Under the pieces are notes generated by a model, which saw only the letters and a list, made by a program, of their open reading frames with translations, did not search any database and was not told the origin of the DNA. Positions 1 through 10,168 of a stretch of 64,000 bases of DNA are shown here, piece by piece. The translations under genes were made by a program, and so were the position numbers. The stretch is taken from positions 1,184,001 through 1,248,000 of the forward strand of contig CAVOHZ010000010.1 in assembly GCA_963695855.1 (NCBI GenBank), written 5' to 3'. Within the stretch, counting starts at the first letter, position 1. Each line of letters opens with the position of its first letter. The stretch comes from an uncultured Nitrososphaerales archaeon. GTDB lineage: Archaea; Thermoproteota; Nitrososphaeria; Nitrososphaerales; Nitrososphaeraceae.

Positions 1-40
1 TTATCTTCAAATAAGTAAGTGATTGTTTTCCTCTAAAATC

Positions 41-1442
41 AAAATTACATTTTATGGGGGAGTAAATGAAATAGGTGGAAACAAAATCCTAATTGAAGAT
101 AAGATACAAAGGTTTTCTTGGATTTGGAAAAAGTTTCAGCCGTAGAGCAAGATTTTTCTAAGAGTTCATCAATCCTAGAACGTCAAATGGTATTGTTGAC
201 TTTATTGCTATGGGACTAGTTCCAGGTATTTCTGGAATATATAGAAATGATTTGATAAAACTAACAGGCAGAAAAACCGAAAAACCTGAAATTGCTGCAG
301 TATTACTTTCTCATGCTCATTCAGACCATGCTGATTACATCTCTTTTTTGCATGAGGATATACCGGTTTACATGGGAGAAACATGTTATATGATTTTAAA
401 GGCACTGGAGGAAAGGTCGTCCAGAAATATTGAAAGAGAGATACTAAACTACAAACCAAGACCATACAGTACAAAAGACAAAGCTATAGAAAGAAAAATA
501 GAGACTTTTAGAACAGGAGACAAGTTCAAGATAGGTTCTCTCGAAATAGAACCAATCCATGTTGACCATTCAGTACCCGGAGCATATGGATTCATTATCT
601 ATACATCAAGTGGACCTGTTGTGTATACTGGTGATATCAGACTACATGGATTCAAATCTCAAATGACATTTGACTTTATAGAAAGAGCTAAAGCGGTAAA
701 ACCGATTGCTCTGATTACTGAAGGAACCAGGATAAACGACATAGAAAAGATAGAAAGCGAAGAATTAGTCTACAGAGAATCAGGCAAAATAGTTAGAGAG
801 ACTGATAGGCTCGTTCTTGTTGATTTTAATTTCAAAGATGTCGACAGATTCCGGACATTTTACAACATAGCAAAAGAAAATAATAGAAAATTTGTTGTAA
901 AACTAAACGATGCATATTTTCTAAAATATTTATCTCAAGACAAAAATCTTGACGTTCCAAATATAGATGACGAAGATATTATTATTTATTTGCCAAAGAG
1001 AGGTTCTGGAACATACTCAGATTCAGATTATAAGGGCAAAGATGGTCAGTTTCTAGATCTTCATAATGCATGGACCGCAGAACAAATTGCTCCAAGGGAA
1101 GACAAGGTGCTCTGTGCAATAGGATTTTTCAGTTTTACCGCGTTAATTGACATGAAACTAAAACCAGGTGCAAGATATATCCACTCCGCAAGTGAACCGT
1201 ATAATGAAGAACAAGAGTTTGACCAAGTTAGGATAAACAATTGGATTGAACATTTTGGTATGACAAAGTTTCAGAGTCACTGTTCAGGACATGCAAGAGG
1301 TCGAGATCTTTTAAATGTAGTCAGAGAGATAGACTCAAAGATGTTATTTCCTGTTCATACTGAATATCCAGATGCTTATGCCAAAGTCACAAAAAACATG
1401 ACGATAATAGAAGAGGGAAAAAAATATGTCATCAAAGGGTGA
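41..1442 (+). CDS. RNase J-like MBL-fold/beta-CASP nuclease; open frame 210-1442, N-terminus (41-209) broken by two 1-nt deletions and a TAA
   Basis: Motifs SHAHSDH, HVDHSVPGA, YTGD, ITEGT, HCSGHA, PVHTE. The upstream DNA reads KITFYGGVNEIGGNKILIED-KDTKVFLD-FGKSF across frame changes near 101 and 123, with TAA at 159-161. Confidence 0.85.
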
Positions 1443-1467
1443 TATGAGGAAAGAACCAATGCGATCA

Positions 1468-1516
1468 GAAAAAATCTCACTTATAATTATCACACATATA
1501 CAATATTAATTGTATA
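1468..1516 (+). promoter_or_regulatory. Possible BRE/TATA promoter and minimal CRISPR leader
   Basis: GAAAAAA followed by TTATAATT (1481-1488), about 30 bp before the first repeat. Confidence 0.4.
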
Positions 1517-2396
1517 GTTTCAAACCTATTTTAGTCAATTTCTAAGTTTGATATAATGGACATCACCAGCCGGCCCATTTGCGTTTCAAACCTATTTTAG
1601 TCAATTTCTAAGCATGAAGATAACCCAATCAATGGATTTGGATGCTCTGTTTCAAACCTATTTTAGTCAATTTCTAAGGTTATATCATAGACAAGTTTGA
1701 GCTTATGTTTTTGAAGTTTCAAACCTATTTTAGTCAATTTCTAAGGAATACTAAGGACACTGCTCAAAGTATCGGTCATGGGTTTCAAACCTATTTTAGT
1801 CAATTTCTAAGTTGTTTTACCTCTTTTTGCTTTCTATTGTTCATAGCAAGTTTCAAACCTATTTTAGTCAATTTCTAAGGCATTATTTATGCTGCCGATA
1901 TTTACAAGAACAAAGGTTTCAAACCTATTTTAGTCAATTTCTAAGATTATTACAACGACATAGGTTTGGATAGAAAAGAATTAGTTTCAAACCCATTTTA
2001 GTCAATTTCTAAGCTACTAGGAATTAAAACCTTATTCATGTCTGTTATTCCAGTTTCAAACCCATTTTAGTCAATTTCTAAGAAATGTGATAAAATTGGA
2101 TCAGTTTTCACTCCGTTTCAAACCCATTTTAGTCAATTTCTAAGGCAAAAAAAGAGATTACTATTGACCCAAAGAGAGGACAGTTTCAAACCCATTTTAG
2201 TCAATTTCTAAGGCAAAAAAAGAGATTACTATTGACCCAAAGAGAGGACAGTTTCAAACCCATTTTAGTCAATTTCTAAGATAAATATGTTGGGTTTAAA
2301 AGGAAAGTAATAATTAAGTTTCAAACCCATTTTAGTCAATTTCTAAGTCAGGATGAAAATTGATCCGTCGTTATCACATTTTTCTAGTTTCAAACC
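1517..2396. CRISPR. CRISPR array: 13 complete 30-bp repeats GTTTCAAACC(T/C)ATTTTAGTCAATTTCTAAG, one truncated repeat, 13 spacers of 32-39 bp
   Basis: Repeats start at 1517, 1583, 1649, 1716, 1782, 1850, 1916, 1984, 2053, 2115, 2183, 2251, 2318; partial GTTTCAAACC at 2387. Spacers 10 and 11 are identical. Confidence 0.98.
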
Positions 2397-2406
2397 GTAT
2401 GTATAC

Positions 2407-2694
2407 TACTGTCATTTTAAGTATTAATTCATTATAAATATTAATAAATTTCTGACTCAACTTATATGTATGGTTTTTCCAAATGGAAAAACTAATGAAG
2501 TCTCTAAAGATGATTCATCACTTTCTAAGAGGCTTCAATTTGTCATGCTAAAAAATGTTAGACCAGCATTTGATCTTAAAAAATGAAATATTAATAAAAT
2601 TCTTTCTAATAGAAAATATATCAATGATATTTTAGGAATAAAAAAAAGTTTTGTAACAATATTGTTACATTATTTTCTATTCAACTAGATTTCT
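2407..2694 (+). repeat. Copy 1 of a ~288-bp direct duplication (partner 7934-8220)
   Basis: Near-identical from TACTGTCATTTTAAGTA to CTATTCAACTAGATTTCT, with scattered substitutions. Confidence 0.95.
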
Positions 2695-2915
2695 TCATAC
2701 ATAAAAACTTTACCAAAATGGGATTTATTGACTATAATGAGAAAAATCGAAAAGTATTTTTTAAAGGAATTCAAAAAATCTTCAGAAATATGTTACTATA
2801 AATTTTCCAGAAATATATTAGTAGAGATTTTACAGAAAAATATTACTAGTATATTAATATCAGTTAACTAAGTTAACTCATCCTTACATATTAGATTTCG
2901 TAATGCAAGAGGAAC

Positions 2916-3200
2916 ATGAAATCTCTTTACGAAAAAAACACTTTCGCTGTAATCGCTATAGTAACTGCCATATTCATGGTTGGTATAATGATGTCCGGCC
3001 CAATATTTGAAAATGCATATGCAAATGATGACCATCATGGCCACTACCATCACCACTACCATCACCACTACCGTCACCACCACCATCATGACCATGACAA
3101 CGACTGCTACGATCATCATGACCATGACCACGACTACTACGATCATCATGACCATGACAACGACTGCTACGATCATCATGACCATGACCACGACGACTAA
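2916..3200 (+). CDS. Secreted His/Asp-rich low-complexity protein
   Basis: Signal peptide ending AYA, followed by HHHY and DHHDHD repeats; similar layout to 52272-52685. Confidence 0.75.
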   Translation: MKSLYEKNTFAVIAIVTAIFMVGIMMSGPIFENAYANDDHHGHYHHHYHHHYRHHHHHDHDNDCYDHHDHDHDYYDHHDHDNDCYDHHDHDHDD

Positions 3201-3246
3201 CAACACAAATCTAGAAACATCTAGATCTTTTTTTAATTTGAATCAA

Positions 3247-3600
3247 TTAACAATTCCTTGGTAAGATGCTAATATTTGGTGTATAAAGATATTTGAATTT
3301 ATAGCTGTATGGTATTGTAAAGAATATCAATAGATGGCCTTTATCATTTCTTTTTATTTTTGTACGCTGAGATAACAATTCTATAGCCACATTAATATTA
3401 TGTATCTCACCAATGGATATTAAAGACTCAATGAAATTTTTAAAATCCTTCGAATGTATATTAGTTACATGCAGTATAAGATTACCATTTTGTATGTTGT
3501 CGTTATAACTTCTAGGCTTGAGTTTAGGTTTCTCTTCTTTATTAAAAATTGAAAATTGAAAGATCTCATCCATTGCGCTTGTAGTTAAATTACTTTCCAT
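3247..3600 (-). CDS. Hypothetical protein
   Basis: 117-aa ORF with ATG start and no recognised motif. Confidence 0.4.
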   Translation of the reverse strand: MESNLTTSAMDEIFQFSIFNKEEKPKLKPRSYNDNIQNGNLILHVTNIHSKDFKNFIESLISIGEIHNINVAIELLSQRTKIKRNDKGHLLIFFTIPYSYKFKYLYTPNISILPRNC

Positions 3601-3864
3601 CTATAAAATCTATAACCCATAGATTAAATGAATTATCGATATTGTATATACTACAGATAGTTTACATATATTACTTCAAACTTTAGATCTGTATGGCTTC
3701 AAACAAATATTTGCGAATGATCTCTAAATCTAATGATTGTTTACACGTTAATTTGCCAAAGGCAGTTAAGAATTTAGGTTTTGAATTCCAAAATTATGTT
3801 ACAGTACAATTGAATCCAGATGAATCTATTACGATTAAAAAAATCGATTTGGATTTGAATTAGA

Positions 3865-4149
3865 ATGAATTTAATAGAGAAAAGTTTAAAAAAATTTGAG
3901 AAATTAAGTAAAGTAAGACCTTTACCAATAGAAGTAAAGCATAAGGCTGAAGAAAAAATCAATCAAATTATACAGAACAAAGTTTCTAATACAGAGGTAC
4001 AAGAATTGAATTCAGCAGTCAAAAATATATCGAATCTAACAGGTTATCCTAGTTCTAGAGTTATGGAAGCTTTAATGAAATCAGATACAAAGAAGATCAT
4101 TATGGTCAATACTGAAGGTAAAATTTTTATTAAAAGAAACGAAGAATAG
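3865..4149 (+). CDS. Hypothetical protein
   Basis: 94-aa ORF, charged and helical composition. Confidence 0.55.
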   Translation: MNLIEKSLKKFEKLSKVRPLPIEVKHKAEEKINQIIQNKVSNTEVQELNSAVKNISNLTGYPSSRVMEALMKSDTKKIIMVNTEGKIFIKRNEE

Positions 4150-4444
4150 AAAGATTAAGGTTTATTTGTCCGCAATAATTGTAGGTTCTCTATGGTTGAG
4201 TTTAAAACTTTCTACTAAACTTTCAATTCTTCTATGTTCAAAGGCAGATAGATTAAAAACTGAATTTTTGTCAATTATAATATAAGAATCTTTATTTTTC
4301 TCTATAGATTTAAATTCTTTATTCCTATCATCATACAAACTAAAATCATTTGAAAATATCGATTCTATCGCTTTAAATCTATTTCCAAAATAAATTATAA
4401 AGGCTACACATCTAAATCCACTTAAATCCTTATTCTATCAATAT

Positions 4445-5800
4445 TCAATAGACATTTTTCTCAAAAGATAATGGTTTAAAGTTAAGATTTAGATCATTAG
4501 CATATCTGTATGCTCTTTTTATTTCTTCTTTGGTGGGAGATCTTGCAATTTCATTATACCGATCTTTATATTTTGGGGACAATGGATTACATAGATTGTC
4601 TGGATGGTATTGATCCATAATGTTGATCTGAACTTCTGGCATATTCTTGGCAATCCACTCTAAAACAGGATTAGTACAACACTCAATATGATTGGGCATT
4701 ACTAGATGACGTATTACAAAATCCTCTCCCCATCGATGCACAAGTTTTAGATTTTTAGTTACAGTTTCCCAGTACCAAGGAGTTCTAGAAAGGTCTAACG
4801 CACATTTGCCAGGACCAAACTTGAAGTCTGGTAGCCAGCCGTCCATGAGTGTGCGCAGAATACTCATTGTCTCACTACTCATAAAGAAGTTCGAGTTCCA
4901 GAGCTGTGGACTATTGAATATAGACTGTTTATAGAATGCATATCCCGAATCAGGAGGTGAATTGTCAAAATATTTATCAGATTTGACCGATTCAATATAA
5001 TCAAGATCCTTTATATTATTTATCCAGTCTATCTTGAAGGAGTCGAGCATACTTATTGCCTGTGTAATGGTATGGAGGTGTATAGTTGGATCACCCCCAA
5101 CCCAGTTAATATTATGACATCCTTCCATTCTAAGCTGCCAAATCATTAAGGCTAAATTATTTGGGGTAATAAGAATACCATTTTCCTTGTCTGTGCTTAT
5201 ATCTCCATTTTGACAAAAAGAGCACCTCATATTGCAGCTTGTAAAAAAAATTGTTCCTGATCCATTGGTTCCTCTGAAAATAAGTTCCTCACCACGATGA
5301 TGAAAATAACTGCTTACTTTAGAAGTTGATTCAAGCTGACAAGTACCACGCTTTTTATGTGTTTTAGTCTGGCATGATCCGTCTTCATTAACTGTTAGTT
5401 GATTAGATCGGTCAATCTGACAATTCCAGCGACAAAAGTTGCAGTGTGTTAGCATGCGTTTGACAAGCTCAACAGTCAAATCCAGTAGTGAGGTTTTCTT
5501 ATGTTGTTTTAATTCGGTTATTATGTCAGTTTCTTCAGATCTTATTGATTTCCACCTCTCTAGGAATATTTTTGTTAGATTTGTAAATTCTTCCCAAAGT
5601 TTTTGTTCATTTATGCCTGATAAATCCATAAATTTACAGGGTATGGATCTGGAAATCAAGTATTTGGCAGGCATCCGATTTGTTGACACAGCGAAGTACC
5701 AAGGTAAGCCCGTTCCCCTATTCTCTTTTAGCTGTTTCCATATGTATAAAGATTCAAAATTCAGAAAGCCTTTATTATCAGTTTGAAAGGATGATCTCAT
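4445..5800 (-). CDS. pflX: Radical SAM protein, PflX (pyruvate formate-lyase activating enzyme-like) family
   Basis: CNFCRWNC, GEE...GSGTIFF, CNMRCSFCQN (CxxxCxxC), NINWVGGDPT, PDFKFG, IRHLVMPNH, MDQYHP. Confidence 0.85.
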   Translation of the reverse strand: MRSSFQTDNKGFLNFESLYIWKQLKENRGTGLPWYFAVSTNRMPAKYLISRSIPCKFMDLSGINEQKLWEEFTNLTKIFLERWKSIRSEETDIITELKQHKKTSLLDLTVELVKRMLTHCNFCRWNCQIDRSNQLTVNEDGSCQTKTHKKRGTCQLESTSKVSSYFHHRGEELIFRGTNGSGTIFFTSCNMRCSFCQNGDISTDKENGILITPNNLALMIWQLRMEGCHNINWVGGDPTIHLHTITQAISMLDSFKIDWINNIKDLDYIESVKSDKYFDNSPPDSGYAFYKQSIFNSPQLWNSNFFMSSETMSILRTLMDGWLPDFKFGPGKCALDLSRTPWYWETVTKNLKLVHRWGEDFVIRHLVMPNHIECCTNPVLEWIAKNMPEVQINIMDQYHPDNLCNPLSPKYKDRYNEIARSPTKEEIKRAYRYANDLNLNFKPLSFEKNVY

Positions 5801-9049: not shown

Positions 9050-10168
9050 TCATTTAATTATTTTGAATTCATCTAATACTTCGCCATCATTGGAATAGTA
9101 TTTACCTATTAACGTATTTCCATTATCGGCTACATCGACGTTTAAAAATCCATAGCTGGAATCTTGCTGATATACGATATAAGGTTCTTGGTTGGTAAAA
9201 GCATCAAAATTAACTCCACCAGTTCCTACTATTATCTGAAACATTCCTTTAGGGGATGTGTATTCTGTTTTGCCGTTATCGTTAATAATTGGTTGTGATG
9301 AATTTTTTTCATTATAAGATATGGGGTAGGTTCTTTGGTAATTATGAGCATGGCCACTAAACAGTATATCAACTCCATATTTTTCAAATAGTGGATGGTA
9401 TGTATCTCTCAATTTTTTTATTGGATCACAAGAGTCATGAAGTCCACAAAGCGAAGAATATTGCTGTCTATGGGTCATAACAATAATCCATTTTATATCC
9501 GGATTTTTTGATGCTTGTGACAGATCTTTATTAACATATTCATATTGTTCTGTTTCTTCAGCATCTGAGAAACGATCTTCCTCACCAGCATTATATGTAG
9601 ATTCAGAAGACATCATTAGAAAATGGATATTTTTGTCGTCAAATGAATAATACGGATCGGATAATTCAAAGTTTTCCATATATTGTTGAAAAAAGGTTGG
9701 CGTCATATAATCATGATTACCAACTATTGCCTTCATTTTATCAGAGATAGGTTTCACTATATCTAGCCAACAATTCATATCAGTACCATAGGATGTATCC
9801 CCAAGATTGAAGACTATTTCTGGATTGTGGTCTTGAATAGAATCTACTGTCTTTTTAGTATCTTTAGTGCAACCCCAATCACCAACCAATGCAAAATTGA
9901 AATTGGAGAAATTTTTTTCATCCTCAAACTGTTCATTTTTTTCCTTAAAAGACGTAAGTTGACTTTTAGGATCTGTACTTTCAGAGTTGTCACTTTTATG
10001 CGATGAAGAGCTTTTATCGCTAAATTCATTAGTATCATAATATTCTTCTGACTGGAATTCAAAAAAATCATCAGATTTGGAAAATGCAGTTTTTAATGAA
10101 ATATCAATAGAAAGTAATAAGGACAAGCTTAAGGAAATGATTAATATTTTATTATATTTATATAACAT
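9050..10168 (-). CDS. Secreted calcineurin-like metallophosphoesterase (purple acid phosphatase-like)
   Basis: Signal peptide; GDWG, GDTSY, GNHD, GHAHNYQR. Confidence 0.9.
   Translation of the reverse strand: MLYKYNKILIISLSLSLLLSIDISLKTAFSKSDDFFEFQSEEYYDTNEFSDKSSSSHKSDNSESTDPKSQLTSFKEKNEQFEDEKNFSNFNFALVGDWGCTKDTKKTVDSIQDHNPEIVFNLGDTSYGTDMNCWLDIVKPISDKMKAIVGNHDYMTPTFFQQYMENFELSDPYYSFDDKNIHFLMMSSESTYNAGEEDRFSDAEETEQYEYVNKDLSQASKNPDIKWIIVMTHRQQYSSLCGLHDSCDPIKKLRDTYHPLFEKYGVDILFSGHAHNYQRTYPISYNEKNSSQPIINDNGKTEYTSPKGMFQIIVGTGGVNFDAFTNQEPYIVYQQDSSYGFLNVDVADNGNTLIGKYYSNDGEVLDEFKIIK

What the first reader, a model, noticed from the sequence alone, without database searches (positions are those of the whole stretch)
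41..2396. CRISPR array directly behind an RNase J-like beta-CASP nuclease, with no cas genes in view
Seen: a well-conserved 13-spacer array starts 74 bp after the stop of an MBL/beta-CASP nuclease gene, and no cas gene was recognised in the 61 kb to the right. Known: His in beta-CASP motif C (PVH) is typical of RNA-acting members, and arrays normally need Cas6/Cas5 plus an effector. Inference: this nuclease may be a CRISPR-linked accessory, or the processor/effector of a non-canonical system. The window starts at this gene, so ordinary cas genes may simply lie just upstream.
Basis: partly seen in the sequence, partly recalled or inferred. Interest (0 to 1): 0.75.

Follow-up and report, generated by a model that had tools for sequence, protein, structure and literature searches.

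The report
Orphan CRISPR array beside broken nuclease
A genuine CRISPR array lies next to a broken nuclease gene in a soil archaeon whose genome has no cas genes, and it looks like a leftover of a lost type I-B immune system, not a new kind of CRISPR machinery.

Summary
The array is real: 13 perfect 30-nt repeats at 1517-2347, 0 expected by chance, plus a 13th spacer and a 10-nt repeat stub ending at 2396. The neighbouring gene (23-1442) is an MBL/beta-CASP hydrolase, closest to PDB 2az4 (EF2904) and far below the RNase J and Cas14 cut-offs. It is broken by two 1-base deletions and a TAA.

No cas gene lies in the 40 kb fetched upstream (20 kb read) or anywhere in this 99.87%-complete genome, and 0 of 25 genomes of the genus have Cas1, RAMP or Cas7 over cut-off. 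The repeat is a type I-B-like repeat read on the minus strand, so the array converges on the nuclease gene. A metagenome contig carries cas4-cas1-cas2 next to it.

The window array is a fragment of a larger array. Its right end continues on another contig, and that piece is cut by an insertion sequence.

Of 29 nuclease homolog loci in other genera, 0 have an array or type I-B cas gene nearby. Inside the genus the nuclease, always decayed, recurs beside arrays and an intact HerA/NurA-like pair, a known CRISPR accessory type.

Verdict: remnant of a decayed CRISPR-Cas locus. The nuclease is not the processor or effector. Modest interest.

The parts
23..1442 (+). Pseudogene of an MBL/beta-CASP hydrolase of the EF2904-like, RNase J-related branch. 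TTG start at 23. One-base deletions at 103/104 and in the T run at 122-125, and an in-frame TAA at 159-161. The longest remaining ORF is 210-1442 (410 aa). HAHSDH at 312-329, PVH at 1350-1358.
   Evidence: Three-frame translations. tblastn of the intact homolog P0002 gives 88% identity over 440 aa, with the N-terminus in another frame. Pfam Lactamase_B_2 and RMMBL. TIGR00649 scores 65.5 bits against a cut-off of 400. Best PDB match is 2az4, E 3.5e-33.
1443..1516 (.). 74-bp gap between the nuclease stop codon and the first repeat. With the array read on the minus strand, this is the promoter-distal (trailer) side.
   Evidence: Sequence. Orientation. No similarity to the flanks of other arrays.
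1517..2347 (-). CRISPR array fragment of 13 repeats of 30 nt and 12 spacers (11 distinct). The crRNA-sense repeat is the reverse complement of the + strand. The repeat belongs to a type I-B-like family.
   Evidence: for the array. for the strand (cas4-cas1-cas2-leader-repeat on contig L132). for the related repeat beside a complete type I-B operon in G079.
2348..2396 (-). 13th spacer (39 nt) plus the first 10 nt of a 14th repeat. This is a rearrangement breakpoint. The last 16 nt of the spacer plus the 10-nt stub (26 nt) recur at the left edge of the 12-repeat array at C8:550856.
   Evidence: G000:C8:550840-550865 matches query 855-880 at 100%. A contig of run X2 carries different sequence left of 2397, and a contig of X1 bridges the junction.
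2397..2915 (.). AT-rich non-coding stretch where a leader would be expected for a minus-strand array. It shows no similarity to the flanks of any other array examined, so it is not a recognisable leader.

Best explanation
The window holds a leaderless fragment of a canonical type I-B-like CRISPR array, encoded on the minus strand. It sits in the remains of a decayed CRISPR-Cas locus.

Shown:
- The core cas genes are missing from this assembly, and Cas1, RAMP and Cas7 from all 24 other genomes of the genus examined.
- What remains at the locus is an intact HerA plus NurA-like operon 3.4 kb upstream of the nuclease gene (a known type of CRISPR accessory pair), the broken beta-CASP gene, and the array.
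- The array has been cut and scattered by rearrangements and insertion sequences.

Inferred:
- The nuclease gene is a decayed neighbour, at most a former accessory or defence-island gene. It does not process or use the crRNAs.
- Any transcript starting from the nuclease gene would be antisense to the crRNAs.
- The array is now inert unless Cas proteins are supplied from elsewhere. With no Cas6, no effector and no Cas1-Cas2 it can neither acquire spacers nor interfere.
For: 1. Cas searches of the own genome (completeness 99.87). There was no match at E<=0.001 for Cas1, Cas2, Cas6, RAMP, DevR/Cas7, Cas5d, Cmr2 or Csm1. Cas3 core and the Cas14 model matched only below their cut-offs. tblastn with the eight type I-B Cas ORFs of relative G079 gave no hit at E<=1e-4, while the flanking housekeeping ORFs did hit. 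By eye, the 20 kb upstream hold no cas gene.

2. Genus. 0 of 25 genomes are over cut-off for Cas1, and 0 of 25 match RAMP or DevR.

3. Repeat type and strand. The reverse complement is 20 of 30 (window form) or 23 of 30 (genus variant) identical to the repeat next to a complete cas6-cas3-cas5-cas7-cas8b-cas6-cas4-cas1 operon in G079. The forward orientation gives 16 or 17 of 30. Contig L132 reads cas4-cas1-cas2, 97 nt, then the repeat, on that strand.

4. Fragmentation.
- The 26-nt junction is shared with the C8:550856 array.
- That array ends in a 7-copy insertion sequence.
- The third array has duplicated spacer blocks and abuts 37-nt repeats.
- A 1.4-kb transposase plus mini-array unit is present in 3 full copies and 1 partial copy.
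- No flank is shared between arrays.

5. Nuclease decay and lack of linkage. It is decayed here and in L141, G012, G026 and G111. 0 of 29 homolog loci elsewhere have arrays, or type I-B Cas, HerA or NurA-like hits. 0 of those 29 genomes have RAMP matches.

6. Accessory pair. The HerA's best PADLOC model is 'HerA, Type III coevolved', E 7.6e-34. The HerA/NurA-like operon adjoins arrays in G012, G026 and L141. HerA/NurA pairs are listed as CRISPR accessory genes in passages of PMC3973734 and PMC6546367.
Against: 1. The repeats are perfectly conserved within arrays and differ slightly between species. No spacer is shared between this genome's arrays and 19 other loci. That argues for activity until recently, which fits poorly with an old loss.

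2. The genome may be a metagenome bin. Soil metagenome runs hold its words. A cas operon on an unbinned contig or a plasmid would be missed, and L132 shows that such cas genes exist in nature next to this repeat.

3. The nuclease-array adjacency recurs in at least three genomes of the genus, which is more than chance. A past functional link is therefore not excluded.

4. All three lesions of the nuclease gene lie in its first 140 nt, and the remaining 1,280 nt are open. The two 1-base deletions could be assembly errors. The reads laid did not cover 78-238.

5. The Cas models used may miss very divergent effectors. No Cas9, Cas12, Cas13 or type IV model was run.
Confidence: 0.7

Rival explanations
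1. The arrays are still in use. The type I-B cas genes are carried by a strain-variable or extrachromosomal element that was not assembled or binned with this genome, and they act in trans on the chromosomal arrays. The nuclease plays no part.
For: Repeats are identical within arrays: 12 of 12 at C8:550856 apart from the last base of the last copy, and 13 of 13 here with one variant position. Repeat variants are species-specific and homogeneous. No spacers are shared between genomes, although the arrays lie beside the same HerA/NurA-like operon. Metagenome contig L132 has cas4-cas1-cas2 directly beside this repeat. 17 of 24 congeners hold repeat-like matches while none has Cas1.
Against: All three arrays of this repeat in the genome lack a recognisable leader. 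They are truncated, cut by an insertion sequence, or carry internal spacer duplications. No cas gene is on any of the 11 contigs. No protospacer was found in 24 congeners, the phage collection, or one IMG/VR scan.
Confidence: 0.17
2. The EF2904-like beta-CASP nuclease was a genuine, so far unlisted, CRISPR-associated accessory gene of the type I-B (or a lost type III) system of this lineage, together with the HerA/NurA-like pair. It decayed after the core cas genes were lost.
For: The nuclease or its fragments lie beside arrays in G000, G012 (both halves, on C15 and C20) and L141. A remnant lies just upstream of the NurA-like gene in G111. Homologs in other families neighbour a Csa3-like CARF-wHTH gene in 5 of 29 loci, with a Cas4-like gene in 3 of those and DISARM-type genes in 3 loci.
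Against: 0 of 29 loci with homologs (22 open, 7 with an internal stop or split) have an array or type I-B cas gene within the fetched flanks, and 0 of 29 of those genomes have RAMP matches. Where Cas1 places were listed on the same contig as the nuclease, they lie 96-340 kb away. The within-genus cases are syntenic and so may be one ancestral event. No PADLOC model matches the protein.
Confidence: 0.1
3. A non-canonical, cas-less system. The beta-CASP nuclease, or the HerA/NurA-like pair, processes or uses the array transcripts directly.
For: The intact HerA/NurA-like operon lies next to arrays in three genomes (G012, G026, L141) and near one in this genome, in a genus where no Cas1, RAMP or Cas7 was found. 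Precedents exist. Type VII uses a beta-CASP effector (PMC10910872, passages). The title and abstract start of PMC3886909 describe an orphan Listeria array that depends on a housekeeping RNase (search listing only).
Against: The nuclease is a pseudogene in every such genome. It scores 27.8 bits against 800 on the Cas14 model and lacks the extra C-terminal domain. Seven HerA/NurA-like ortholog loci in other genera have no arrays. The gene and the crRNA strand converge.
Confidence: 0.03

Closest known systems
Orphan (cas-less) CRISPR arrays, e.g. the CRISPR2 locus of Enterococcus faecalis and the 'isolated' arrays surveyed by Zhang and Ye 2017 (PMC4580645 and PMC5294841, search listing and abstract start only)
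   Same: It is a bona fide repeat-spacer array in a genome without cas genes. The repeat belongs to a family that has a full cas operon in relatives.
   Different: Here the state extends to a whole genus: 0 of 25 genomes have Cas1, RAMP or Cas7, while 17 of 24 congeners have repeat matches. In addition, one array has been broken into pieces on different contigs.
Type I-B CRISPR-Cas of a same-family relative (G079 locus L100: cas6-cas3-cas5-cas7-cas8b-cas6-cas4-cas1 plus a 32-repeat array)
   Same: The repeat is also 30 nt. 20-23 of 30 positions are identical in the same orientation, including the GTTTGAA start and TTGAAA near the 3' end. The repeat is unstructured.
   Different: None of the eight cas genes is present in this genome, and no leader is recognisable.
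Type VII CRISPR-Cas with the beta-CASP effector Cas14 (PMC10910872, passages read)
   Different: The Cas14 model scores 27.8 bits against a cut-off of 800 on the intact homolog. The protein is 474 aa with no Cas10-like C-terminal domain. There is no Cas7 or Cas5 operon, and the gene is broken.
EF2904 of Enterococcus faecalis (PDB 2az4, deposited as a hypothetical protein) and RNase J
   Same: EF2904 is the best solved relative (E 3.5e-33 over residues 4-244, plus the C-terminal motif region). It shares the MBL HxHxDH motif and the RMMBL motif with His.
   Different: No function is on record for EF2904 in the entry title. The RNase J models match only weakly: TIGR00649 scores 77.8 bits against a cut-off of 400 on the intact homolog.
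Cas-HerA / Cas-NurA accessory pair of archaeal type I and III systems (PMC3973734 and PMC6546367, passages read)
   Same: A HerA ATPase is co-operonic with a roughly 620-aa partner and lies beside CRISPR arrays. The best PADLOC model is the 'Type III coevolved' HerA.
   Different: No cas genes are nearby. The partner has no Pfam, NCBIfam or PADLOC match, and its NurA label rests only on an Atlas lead in which 14-16% of cluster members carry PF09376.

Membership tests
CRISPR array | Three or more near-identical direct repeats of 23-50 nt at regular spacing | tested here: met
   13 copies of 30 nt, spaced 62-69 nt apart, with 0 expected by chance.
CRISPR array | Unique spacers of similar length | tested here: met
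   12 full spacers of 32-39 nt, 11 of them distinct, plus a 13th of 39 nt.
CRISPR array | Repeat family found next to cas genes somewhere | tested here: met
   On L132, cas4-cas1-cas2 are followed 97 nt later by the repeat.
CRISPR array | Leader sequence conserved with other arrays of the same repeat | tested here: not met
   The flanks of the window array and of the two other arrays in this genome matched no flank of 22 further loci, nor the candidate leaders of L141 and L182.
Type I-B CRISPR-Cas system (complete) | cas8b, cas7, cas5, cas3 and cas6 interference genes plus the cas1-cas2(-cas4) adaptation genes in the genome | tested here: not met
   There were no matches for PF01867, PF09827, PF01881, PF01905 or PF09704. 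TIGR01587 matched only below cut-off, at 79.4 bits against 102.45. tblastn with G079's eight proteins gave no hit.
Type III CRISPR-Cas | Cas10 plus RAMP subunits | tested here: not met
   PF03787, TIGR02577 and TIGR02578 gave 0 matches in the own genome.
Type VII CRISPR-Cas (Cas14) | The protein scores as Cas14 (NF045584, cut-off 800 bits) | tested here: not met
   27.8 bits on the intact homolog P0002. In the genome search the best scorers were three other beta-CASP genes at 231-300 bits, none over cut-off, and the window gene was not among the four matches.
Type VII CRISPR-Cas (Cas14) | C-terminal Cas10-like adaptor domain of about 200 aa behind the beta-CASP domain (PMC10910872) | tested here: not met
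   Intact homologs are 465-476 aa. The RMMBL motif lies at 421-453 of 474, which leaves about 20 residues behind it.
Type VII CRISPR-Cas (Cas14) | Operon with Cas7 and Cas5 | tested here: not met
   The neighbours are a 182-aa protein with no family match, a beta-propeller protein, a His-rich protein and a radical SAM protein. There are no RAMP, DevR or Cas5d matches in the genome. Type VII-specific Cas7 and Cas5 models were not run.
RNase J | Score over the TIGR00649 or NF047419 cut-offs | tested here: not met
   TIGR00649 scores 65.5 bits (window ORF) and 77.8 bits (P0002) against a cut-off of 400. NF047419 scores 53.8 and 60.7 bits against 820.
MBL/beta-CASP superfamily | HxHxDH metal motif and the C-terminal RMMBL motif with His (motif C) | tested here: met
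   HAHSDH at nt 312-329 and PVH at nt 1350-1358. Pfam Lactamase_B_2 E 2.4e-11 and RMMBL E 2.2e-6. The assignment of beta-CASP motifs A and B was not checked residue by residue.
Cas-HerA/Cas-NurA accessory pair | HerA of the CRISPR-coevolved type | tested here: inconclusive
   The best PADLOC model is PDLC01055, 'Type III coevolved', E 7.6e-34 (PADLOC has no curated cut-off). NCBIfam HerA_antiphage scores 58.4 bits against a cut-off of 800.
Cas-HerA/Cas-NurA accessory pair | Partner with a NurA domain | tested here: inconclusive
   There was no Pfam, NCBIfam or PADLOC match. The Atlas's nearest clusters score 0.96 and carry PF09376 on 14-16% of members.
Cas-HerA/Cas-NurA accessory pair | Located beside cas gene cassettes | tested here: not met
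   It lies beside arrays but not beside cas genes in G000, G012, G026 and L141. The seven ortholog loci in other genera have neither.

The most novel reading that the evidence does not exclude
In this genus the chromosomal CRISPR arrays, kept homogeneous and with species-specific spacers although no genome holds Cas1, RAMP or Cas7, would be served by something other than resident Cas proteins. Either the intact HerA/NurA-like operon that sits beside them in three genomes (and near the array in this one) uses array transcripts directly, as a cas-less guided defence, or a mobile cas module visits and reloads them.
Probability: 0.05. Interest if true: 0.85.

Novelty: new member of a known kind. 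Interest (0 to 1): 0.28.

Why it matters
As first proposed, a beta-CASP nuclease acting as CRISPR processor or effector outside type VII would have been a new CRISPR mechanism. The evidence does not support that.

What remains is a well-documented example of how a CRISPR-Cas locus decays. The core cas genes are gone, while the arrays are still perfect but cut by rearrangement and insertion sequences. An accessory HerA/NurA-like pair survives intact.

The genus-wide pattern is worth a note for people who study CRISPR loss, orphan arrays and binning artefacts in soil ammonia-oxidiser relatives. Repeat matches occur in 17 of 24 congeners, and Cas1, RAMP and Cas7 in 0 of 25 genomes. The pattern also bears on the use of spacers from such arrays for virus-host linking.

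Tried and rejected
Expression. The look-up of sequencing runs listed no RNA holder, so nothing can be said about transcription.

Read support. The reads laid were Logan contigs of four soil metagenome runs from one study, at low depth. They did not cover 78-238, so they neither confirm nor refute the frameshifts.

Spacer targets:
- blastn of the whole array against 50,697 phage records gave only two chance-level hits at E 0.9.
- One 26-nt piece of spacer 1 found nothing in IMG/VR.
- BLAST of the array against 24 congeners gave repeat-driven matches and only short hits at or below 92% identity that touched spacers. None was convincing.
- Within the own genome the only spacer-like hit was 92% over 37 nt with 2 gaps, at C3:303179-303213, E 0.005. 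I did not follow it up.

Leader and RNA families:
- Leader search: no shared flank.
- Rfam: no family matched 1-3000 at E<=1.
- The repeat does not fold in either strand, with z-scores of 0.48 and -0.24.

Nuclease on viral contigs: none encodes a relative.

Considered and dropped:
- The nuclease locus in G382 and G435 lies next to genes that flank a CRISPR-Cas locus in G079. However, the nuclease sits outside the insertion point, so I draw nothing from it.
- The tandem repeat near the homolog in G327 (L061/L090) is not a CRISPR.
- Cross-tabulating Cas1 with the nuclease across the class is confounded. Many of the Cas1 matches have open frames of about 400-420 aa and occur several times per genome. 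From recall, not tested here, these may be casposon-type Cas1. In addition, 55 Cas1 places were not listed.

Not done:
- Models for Cas9, Cas12, Cas13, type IV or type VII Cas7/Cas5.
- Structure prediction.
- dN/dS.
- Paper supplements were closed. Table S5 and Data S2 of PMC10910872 and Table S1 of PMC3973734 might list a related beta-CASP or HerA/NurA module.

Labels that rest on my eye or recall, not on a call:
- 'IS630-like' and 'IS6-like' for the two transposases.
- 'AbrB-like' for the small ORF at 3693-3863.
- The guess that the assembly is a metagenome bin.
- The tRNA-like fragment in G012:C15.
- My sorting of the rows into CRISPR-like arrays and coding tandem repeats.

Unpublished genomes:
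- G448 and G330 are 2 of the 29 homolog loci in the counts.
- G448 is 1 of the 5 loci with the Csa3-like neighbour.
- G409 appears only in the Cas1 tally.
Full report
WHAT IS THERE

The window is G000:C10:1184001-1248000, part of a 3.55-Mb, 11-contig, roughly 31% G+C assembly scored 99.87% complete.

The repeat GTTTCAAACC[T/C]ATTTTAGTCAATTTCTAAG occurs 13 times at 1517-2347 with no mismatch. Shuffles gave 0. The spacers are 32-39 nt, and two neighbouring spacers are identical. A 13th spacer is followed by only 10 nt of a repeat, ending at 2396.

THE NUCLEASE GENE

Aligned to an intact 474-aa homolog (P0002, 88% identity over 440 residues), the gene starts at a TTG at position 23. It carries three lesions in its first 140 nt: a 1-base deletion at 103/104, a 1-base deletion in the T run at 122-125, and a TAA at 159-161 where homologs have glutamate. 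The rest is open (ORF 210-1442, 410 aa).

Its scores against the named families are:

| Model or entry | Score | Cut-off |
|---|---|---|
| RNase J, TIGR00649 (window ORF) | 65.5 bits | 400 |
| RNase J, TIGR00649 (P0002) | 77.8 bits | 400 |
| Type VII Cas14, NF045584 (P0002) | 27.8 bits | 800 |
| PDB 2az4, 'hypothetical protein EF2904' | E 3.5e-33 | none |

It is therefore a beta-CASP/MBL hydrolase of an uncharacterised, RNase J-related branch, and here it is a pseudogene. One caveat applies. The two deletions could be assembly errors, because the laid metagenome contigs did not cover 78-238.

CAS GENES

The 20 kb to the left that I read contain no cas gene. By eye and by Pfam they hold a multicopper-oxidase-like protein, dehydrogenases, a HerA ATPase with a 618-aa partner, a beta-propeller protein and a 182-aa protein. 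A further 20 kb upstream was fetched but not read.

In the whole genome there was no match at E<=0.001 for Cas1, Cas2, Cas6, RAMP, DevR/Cas7, Cas5d, Cmr2 or Csm1. Cas3 core matched only below its cut-off (best 79.4 bits against 102.45). The Cas14 model hit three other beta-CASP genes at 231-300 bits against a cut-off of 800. Each of the Cas models except Cas14 rang over its cut-off in 2-7 of the 14 control genomes. The Cas14 model rang in 10, none over its cut-off.

tblastn with all ORFs of 100 aa or more from nine cas neighbourhoods of relatives gave hits only to housekeeping flanks and to translated arrays. The eight type I-B cas ORFs of G079 gave none.

Across the genus, 0 of 25 genomes are over cut-off for Cas1. 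The single sub-threshold match is an 18.9-bit, 34-residue piece in G012. RAMP and DevR gave 0 of 25. Cas1 is found in 121 of 301 genomes of the class, 120 of them over cut-off, so the search works in this lineage.

REPEAT TYPE AND STRAND

In the same family, G079 carries a 30-nt repeat next to cas6-cas3-cas5-cas7-cas8b-cas6-cas4-cas1, as named by PADLOC. Identity to that repeat depends on orientation:

| Repeat form | Reverse complement | Forward |
|---|---|---|
| Window repeat | 20 of 30 | 16 of 30 |
| Common genus variant | 23 of 30 | 17 of 30 |

A 2.3-kb metagenome contig (L132) reads, on one strand, cas4 (171 aa), cas1 (334 aa, 46% identical to G079's), cas2 (87 aa), 97 nt, and then the reverse-complement form of the repeat at the contig end.

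The repeat family is therefore type I-B-like, and the crRNA strand of the window array is the minus strand. Array and nuclease gene converge, and the 74-bp gap lies at the promoter-distal end. No Rfam family matches, and the repeat is unstructured.

THE ARRAY IS A FRAGMENT

The last 16 nt of the 13th spacer plus the 10-nt repeat stub recur at the left edge of a 12-repeat array at C8:550856. A contig of run X2 shows other sequence left of 2397, and one of X1 bridges the junction.

The C8:550856 array ends in a sequence present at six other places in the genome. By eye it is the end of a transposase-bearing insertion sequence.

A third array with the same repeat (C8:583598-584178, 9 repeats) has duplicated spacer blocks, with 5 distinct spacers among 8. 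It runs straight into three 37-nt repeats of another family that is also known next to Cas1 in relatives.

A scan of the genome found nine CRISPR-like places by my reading of the rows, plus solitary copies. Several of these belong to a 1.4-kb unit made of a transposase gene plus a mini-array, present in three near-complete copies and one partial copy.

None of the three arrays shares a flank with any other array examined, so no leader can be named. A 1.7-kb segment is duplicated about 17-18 kb upstream of the window array and about 2-4 kb upstream of the C8:550856 array.

The protein has about 3,800 database relatives, many at 72-88% identity and some labelled MBL fold metallo-hydrolase of Nitrosarchaeum or Nitrosopumilaceae.

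In 301 genomes of the class, 73 have a match at E<=1e-60. These fall into a 44-80% identity group that is patchy across families, and a 33-43% group of roughly 500-aa proteins.

I took the 29 loci that the tool returned for the first group. I dropped second partial copies in G406 and G369, G205 and G237 (no locus was given for them), G012, and all rows of 33-43% identity. I then fetched 4.7-19.9 kb around each. The results were:
- 0 of 29 have a CRISPR-like array. One has an unrelated tandem repeat.
- 0 of 29 have a tblastn hit to the type I-B Cas proteins, HerA or the NurA-like protein.
- 0 of the 29 genomes have a RAMP match.
- 13 of the 29 have a Cas1 match. Where listed, these lie on other contigs or 96-340 kb away. 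Not every Cas1 place was listed.
- 5 of 29 have a Csa3-like CARF-wHTH gene nearby (HFX_2341_N plus DUF6293_C). Three of those five also have a Cas4-like gene, and three loci have DISARM-type genes (DrmB model on the one ORF scanned).
- 7 of the 29 copies are themselves interrupted: six have an in-frame stop and one is split into two ORFs.

The gene behaves like variable defence-island cargo. It does not behave like a CRISPR companion.

INSIDE THE GENUS THE PICTURE DIFFERS

5 of 25 genomes match the nuclease at E<=1e-20. The state of each copy is as follows:

| Genome or contig | What remains of the nuclease | What lies beside it |
|---|---|---|
| G012:C20 | Residues 224-473 | A degenerate array, truncated in its last repeat, runs straight into the coding sequence. 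On the other side lies the HerA/NurA-like operon. |
| G012:C15 | Residues 12-193, with a stop and a frameshift | A 4-repeat array about 165 bp away, followed by a truncated Csa3-like gene. |
| Metagenome contig L141 | Nearly full length, two frameshifts | About 1.4 kb away, a 7-repeat array, then the NurA-like and HerA genes. |
| G026:C122 | No nuclease on this contig | The HerA/NurA-like operon with a 5-repeat array 88 nt behind it. |
| G026:C33 | Residues 324-473 | No array within about 10 kb. |
| G037, G048 | Full-length relatives at 36-40% identity | No array on their short contigs. |
| G111 (another genus) | Residues 8-106 | Lies just upstream of the NurA-like gene. |

The HerA/NurA-like pair is intact in G000, G012, G026 and L141, at 76-85% identity. 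The HerA's best PADLOC model is the 'Type III coevolved' HerA. HerA/NurA pairs are listed as accessory genes of archaeal type I and III systems in passages of PMC3973734 and PMC6546367. The partner's NurA label is only a lead. Seven ortholog loci of the pair in other genera have no array and no type I-B cas gene in the fetched flanks.

My reading is that a variable locus holding the nuclease and the HerA/NurA-like pair also held a CRISPR-Cas system in the ancestor of these species. The G000 and G012 loci are syntenic, so this linkage may count as one event and not as several independent ones.

WERE THE ARRAYS RECENTLY ALIVE?

Repeat variants are homogeneous within arrays and differ by one to a few bases between species. 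None of the spacers of the three G000 arrays matches a spacer from the 19 other loci examined. The only cross-locus identity is between two metagenome contigs that are clearly the same organism.

Repeat-like matches occur in 17 of 24 congeners, or 8 of 24 at 3 mismatches or fewer.

My inference is as follows. Neutral DNA would not stay this uniform at the divergence seen between these species, where orthologous proteins are 76-85% identical. Adaptation must therefore have continued after the species split. Either cas genes were lost recently and repeatedly, or they live on elements that the assemblies miss. This is the main point against a simple 'old remnant' reading, and the reason the trans-acting rival gets 0.17.

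EXPLANATION AND RIVALS

The best-supported account, at 0.70, is a decayed type I-B-like CRISPR locus. Its core cas genes are gone, the array is cut into leaderless pieces, the accessory HerA/NurA-like pair is retained, and the beta-CASP gene is dead. Without Cas6, Cascade, Cas3 and Cas1-Cas2 the array cannot work by the known route.

The rivals are:
- Trans-acting cas genes on an unassembled element (0.17).
- The nuclease as a former, unlisted accessory gene (0.10).
- A cas-less guided system that uses the nuclease or HerA/NurA (0.03).

Its precedent, type VII, fails all three membership tests.

NOVELTY AND CAVEATS

Orphan arrays are well known (listings), so this is a new member of a known kind. 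The genus-wide extent and the surviving accessory pair are the only unusual aspects.

The caveats are:
- The assembly may be a bin.
- Most congeners are fragmented.
- Class 2, type IV and type VII Cas7/Cas5 models were not run.
- No RNA data exist.
- Transposase family names and some gene labels are by eye.
- Two of the 29 homolog loci come from unpublished genomes (G448, G330).

Noticed in passing
Upstream of the window: G000:C10:1176891-1180627 (L001 12891-16627): An intact two-gene operon of a 618-aa protein (no Pfam, NCBIfam or PADLOC match; Atlas lead to NurA) and a 627-aa HerA ATPase. The HerA's best PADLOC model is 'HerA, Type III coevolved'. The pair lies next to arrays in G012, G026 and metagenome contig L141, and is found in 31 of 201 genomes of the family.
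   Followed up: partly
G000:C3:255290-256700, C8:~259,600-261,000 (-), C10:1665950-1667500, partial at C10:1359273: A 1.4-kb repeated unit made of a 233-aa transposase gene (IS6-like by eye), a conserved 60-nt stretch, a mini-array of the variant repeat with the same 'spacers' in each copy, and a tRNA-like 3' fragment. It looks like an array fragment carried around by an insertion sequence.
   Followed up: partly
G000:C8:583375-584178: A composite array. Nine 30-nt repeats run directly into three 37-nt repeats of a second family. That family also occurs at C8:198147-198394, and in relatives G079 and G107 it lies next to Cas1. A third repeat form, close to the type I-B repeat of G079, sits at C2:123031, C5:27439 and C6:111343.
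   Followed up: partly
L075-L077, L087, L097 (genomes G344, G353, G448, G397, G311): In other families the nuclease gene neighbours a 255-265-aa Csa3-like CARF-wHTH protein (HFX_2341_N plus DUF6293_C). Three of those five loci also hold a Cas4-like PD-(D/E)xK protein, and three loci (G405, G344, G353) hold DISARM-type genes (DrmB model, E 1.9e-200, on the G405 ORF). This may be a small signalling module or just defence-island company. G448 is an unpublished genome.
   Followed up: partly
window 2916-3200 (+), DNA repeat family at 3019-3222: A 94-aa predicted protein with an N-terminal hydrophobic stretch and a His/Asp/Tyr-rich tail (HHHYHHH..., DHHDHDHD...), encoded by imperfect 12/18-nt periodic DNA. 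It has no meaningful Pfam match.
   Followed up: no
L040 (G012:C15) 9820-9880: The N-terminal nuclease fragment in G012 ends at a sequence that looks like the 3' end of a tRNA gene (GGGTTCGAATCCC... on the minus strand). This may be an attachment-site copy left by an integrating element.
   Followed up: no
L001 1439-3114 and L003 15910-17574 (C10:1165439-1167114 and C8:546910-548574): The same 1.7-kb segment lies upstream of both the window array and the C8:550856 array, in opposite orientation. It holds a transposase fragment, a 139-aa CoA-binding-like protein and a 117-aa fragment. This fits the idea that the two array pieces were separated by a rearrangement.
   Followed up: no
G000:C10:392251-393579 (-), open frame 728 aa: This beta-CASP paralog is the genome's best scorer on the Cas14 model (300 bits against a cut-off of 800). 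It is probably an aCPSF1-type housekeeping gene and is not near any array.
   Followed up: no
L005 3449-5222 (G000:C8:574449-576222): Two overlapping same-strand ORFs (235 and 384 aa) look like one gene split by a frameshift. This is either another pseudogene or a hint of indel errors in the assembly.
   Followed up: no
window 4445-5800 (-): A 451-aa radical SAM protein (Pfam Radical_SAM and Fer4_12) is the first sizeable gene to the right of the array. Small ORFs at 3247-4338 have no family match.
   Followed up: no
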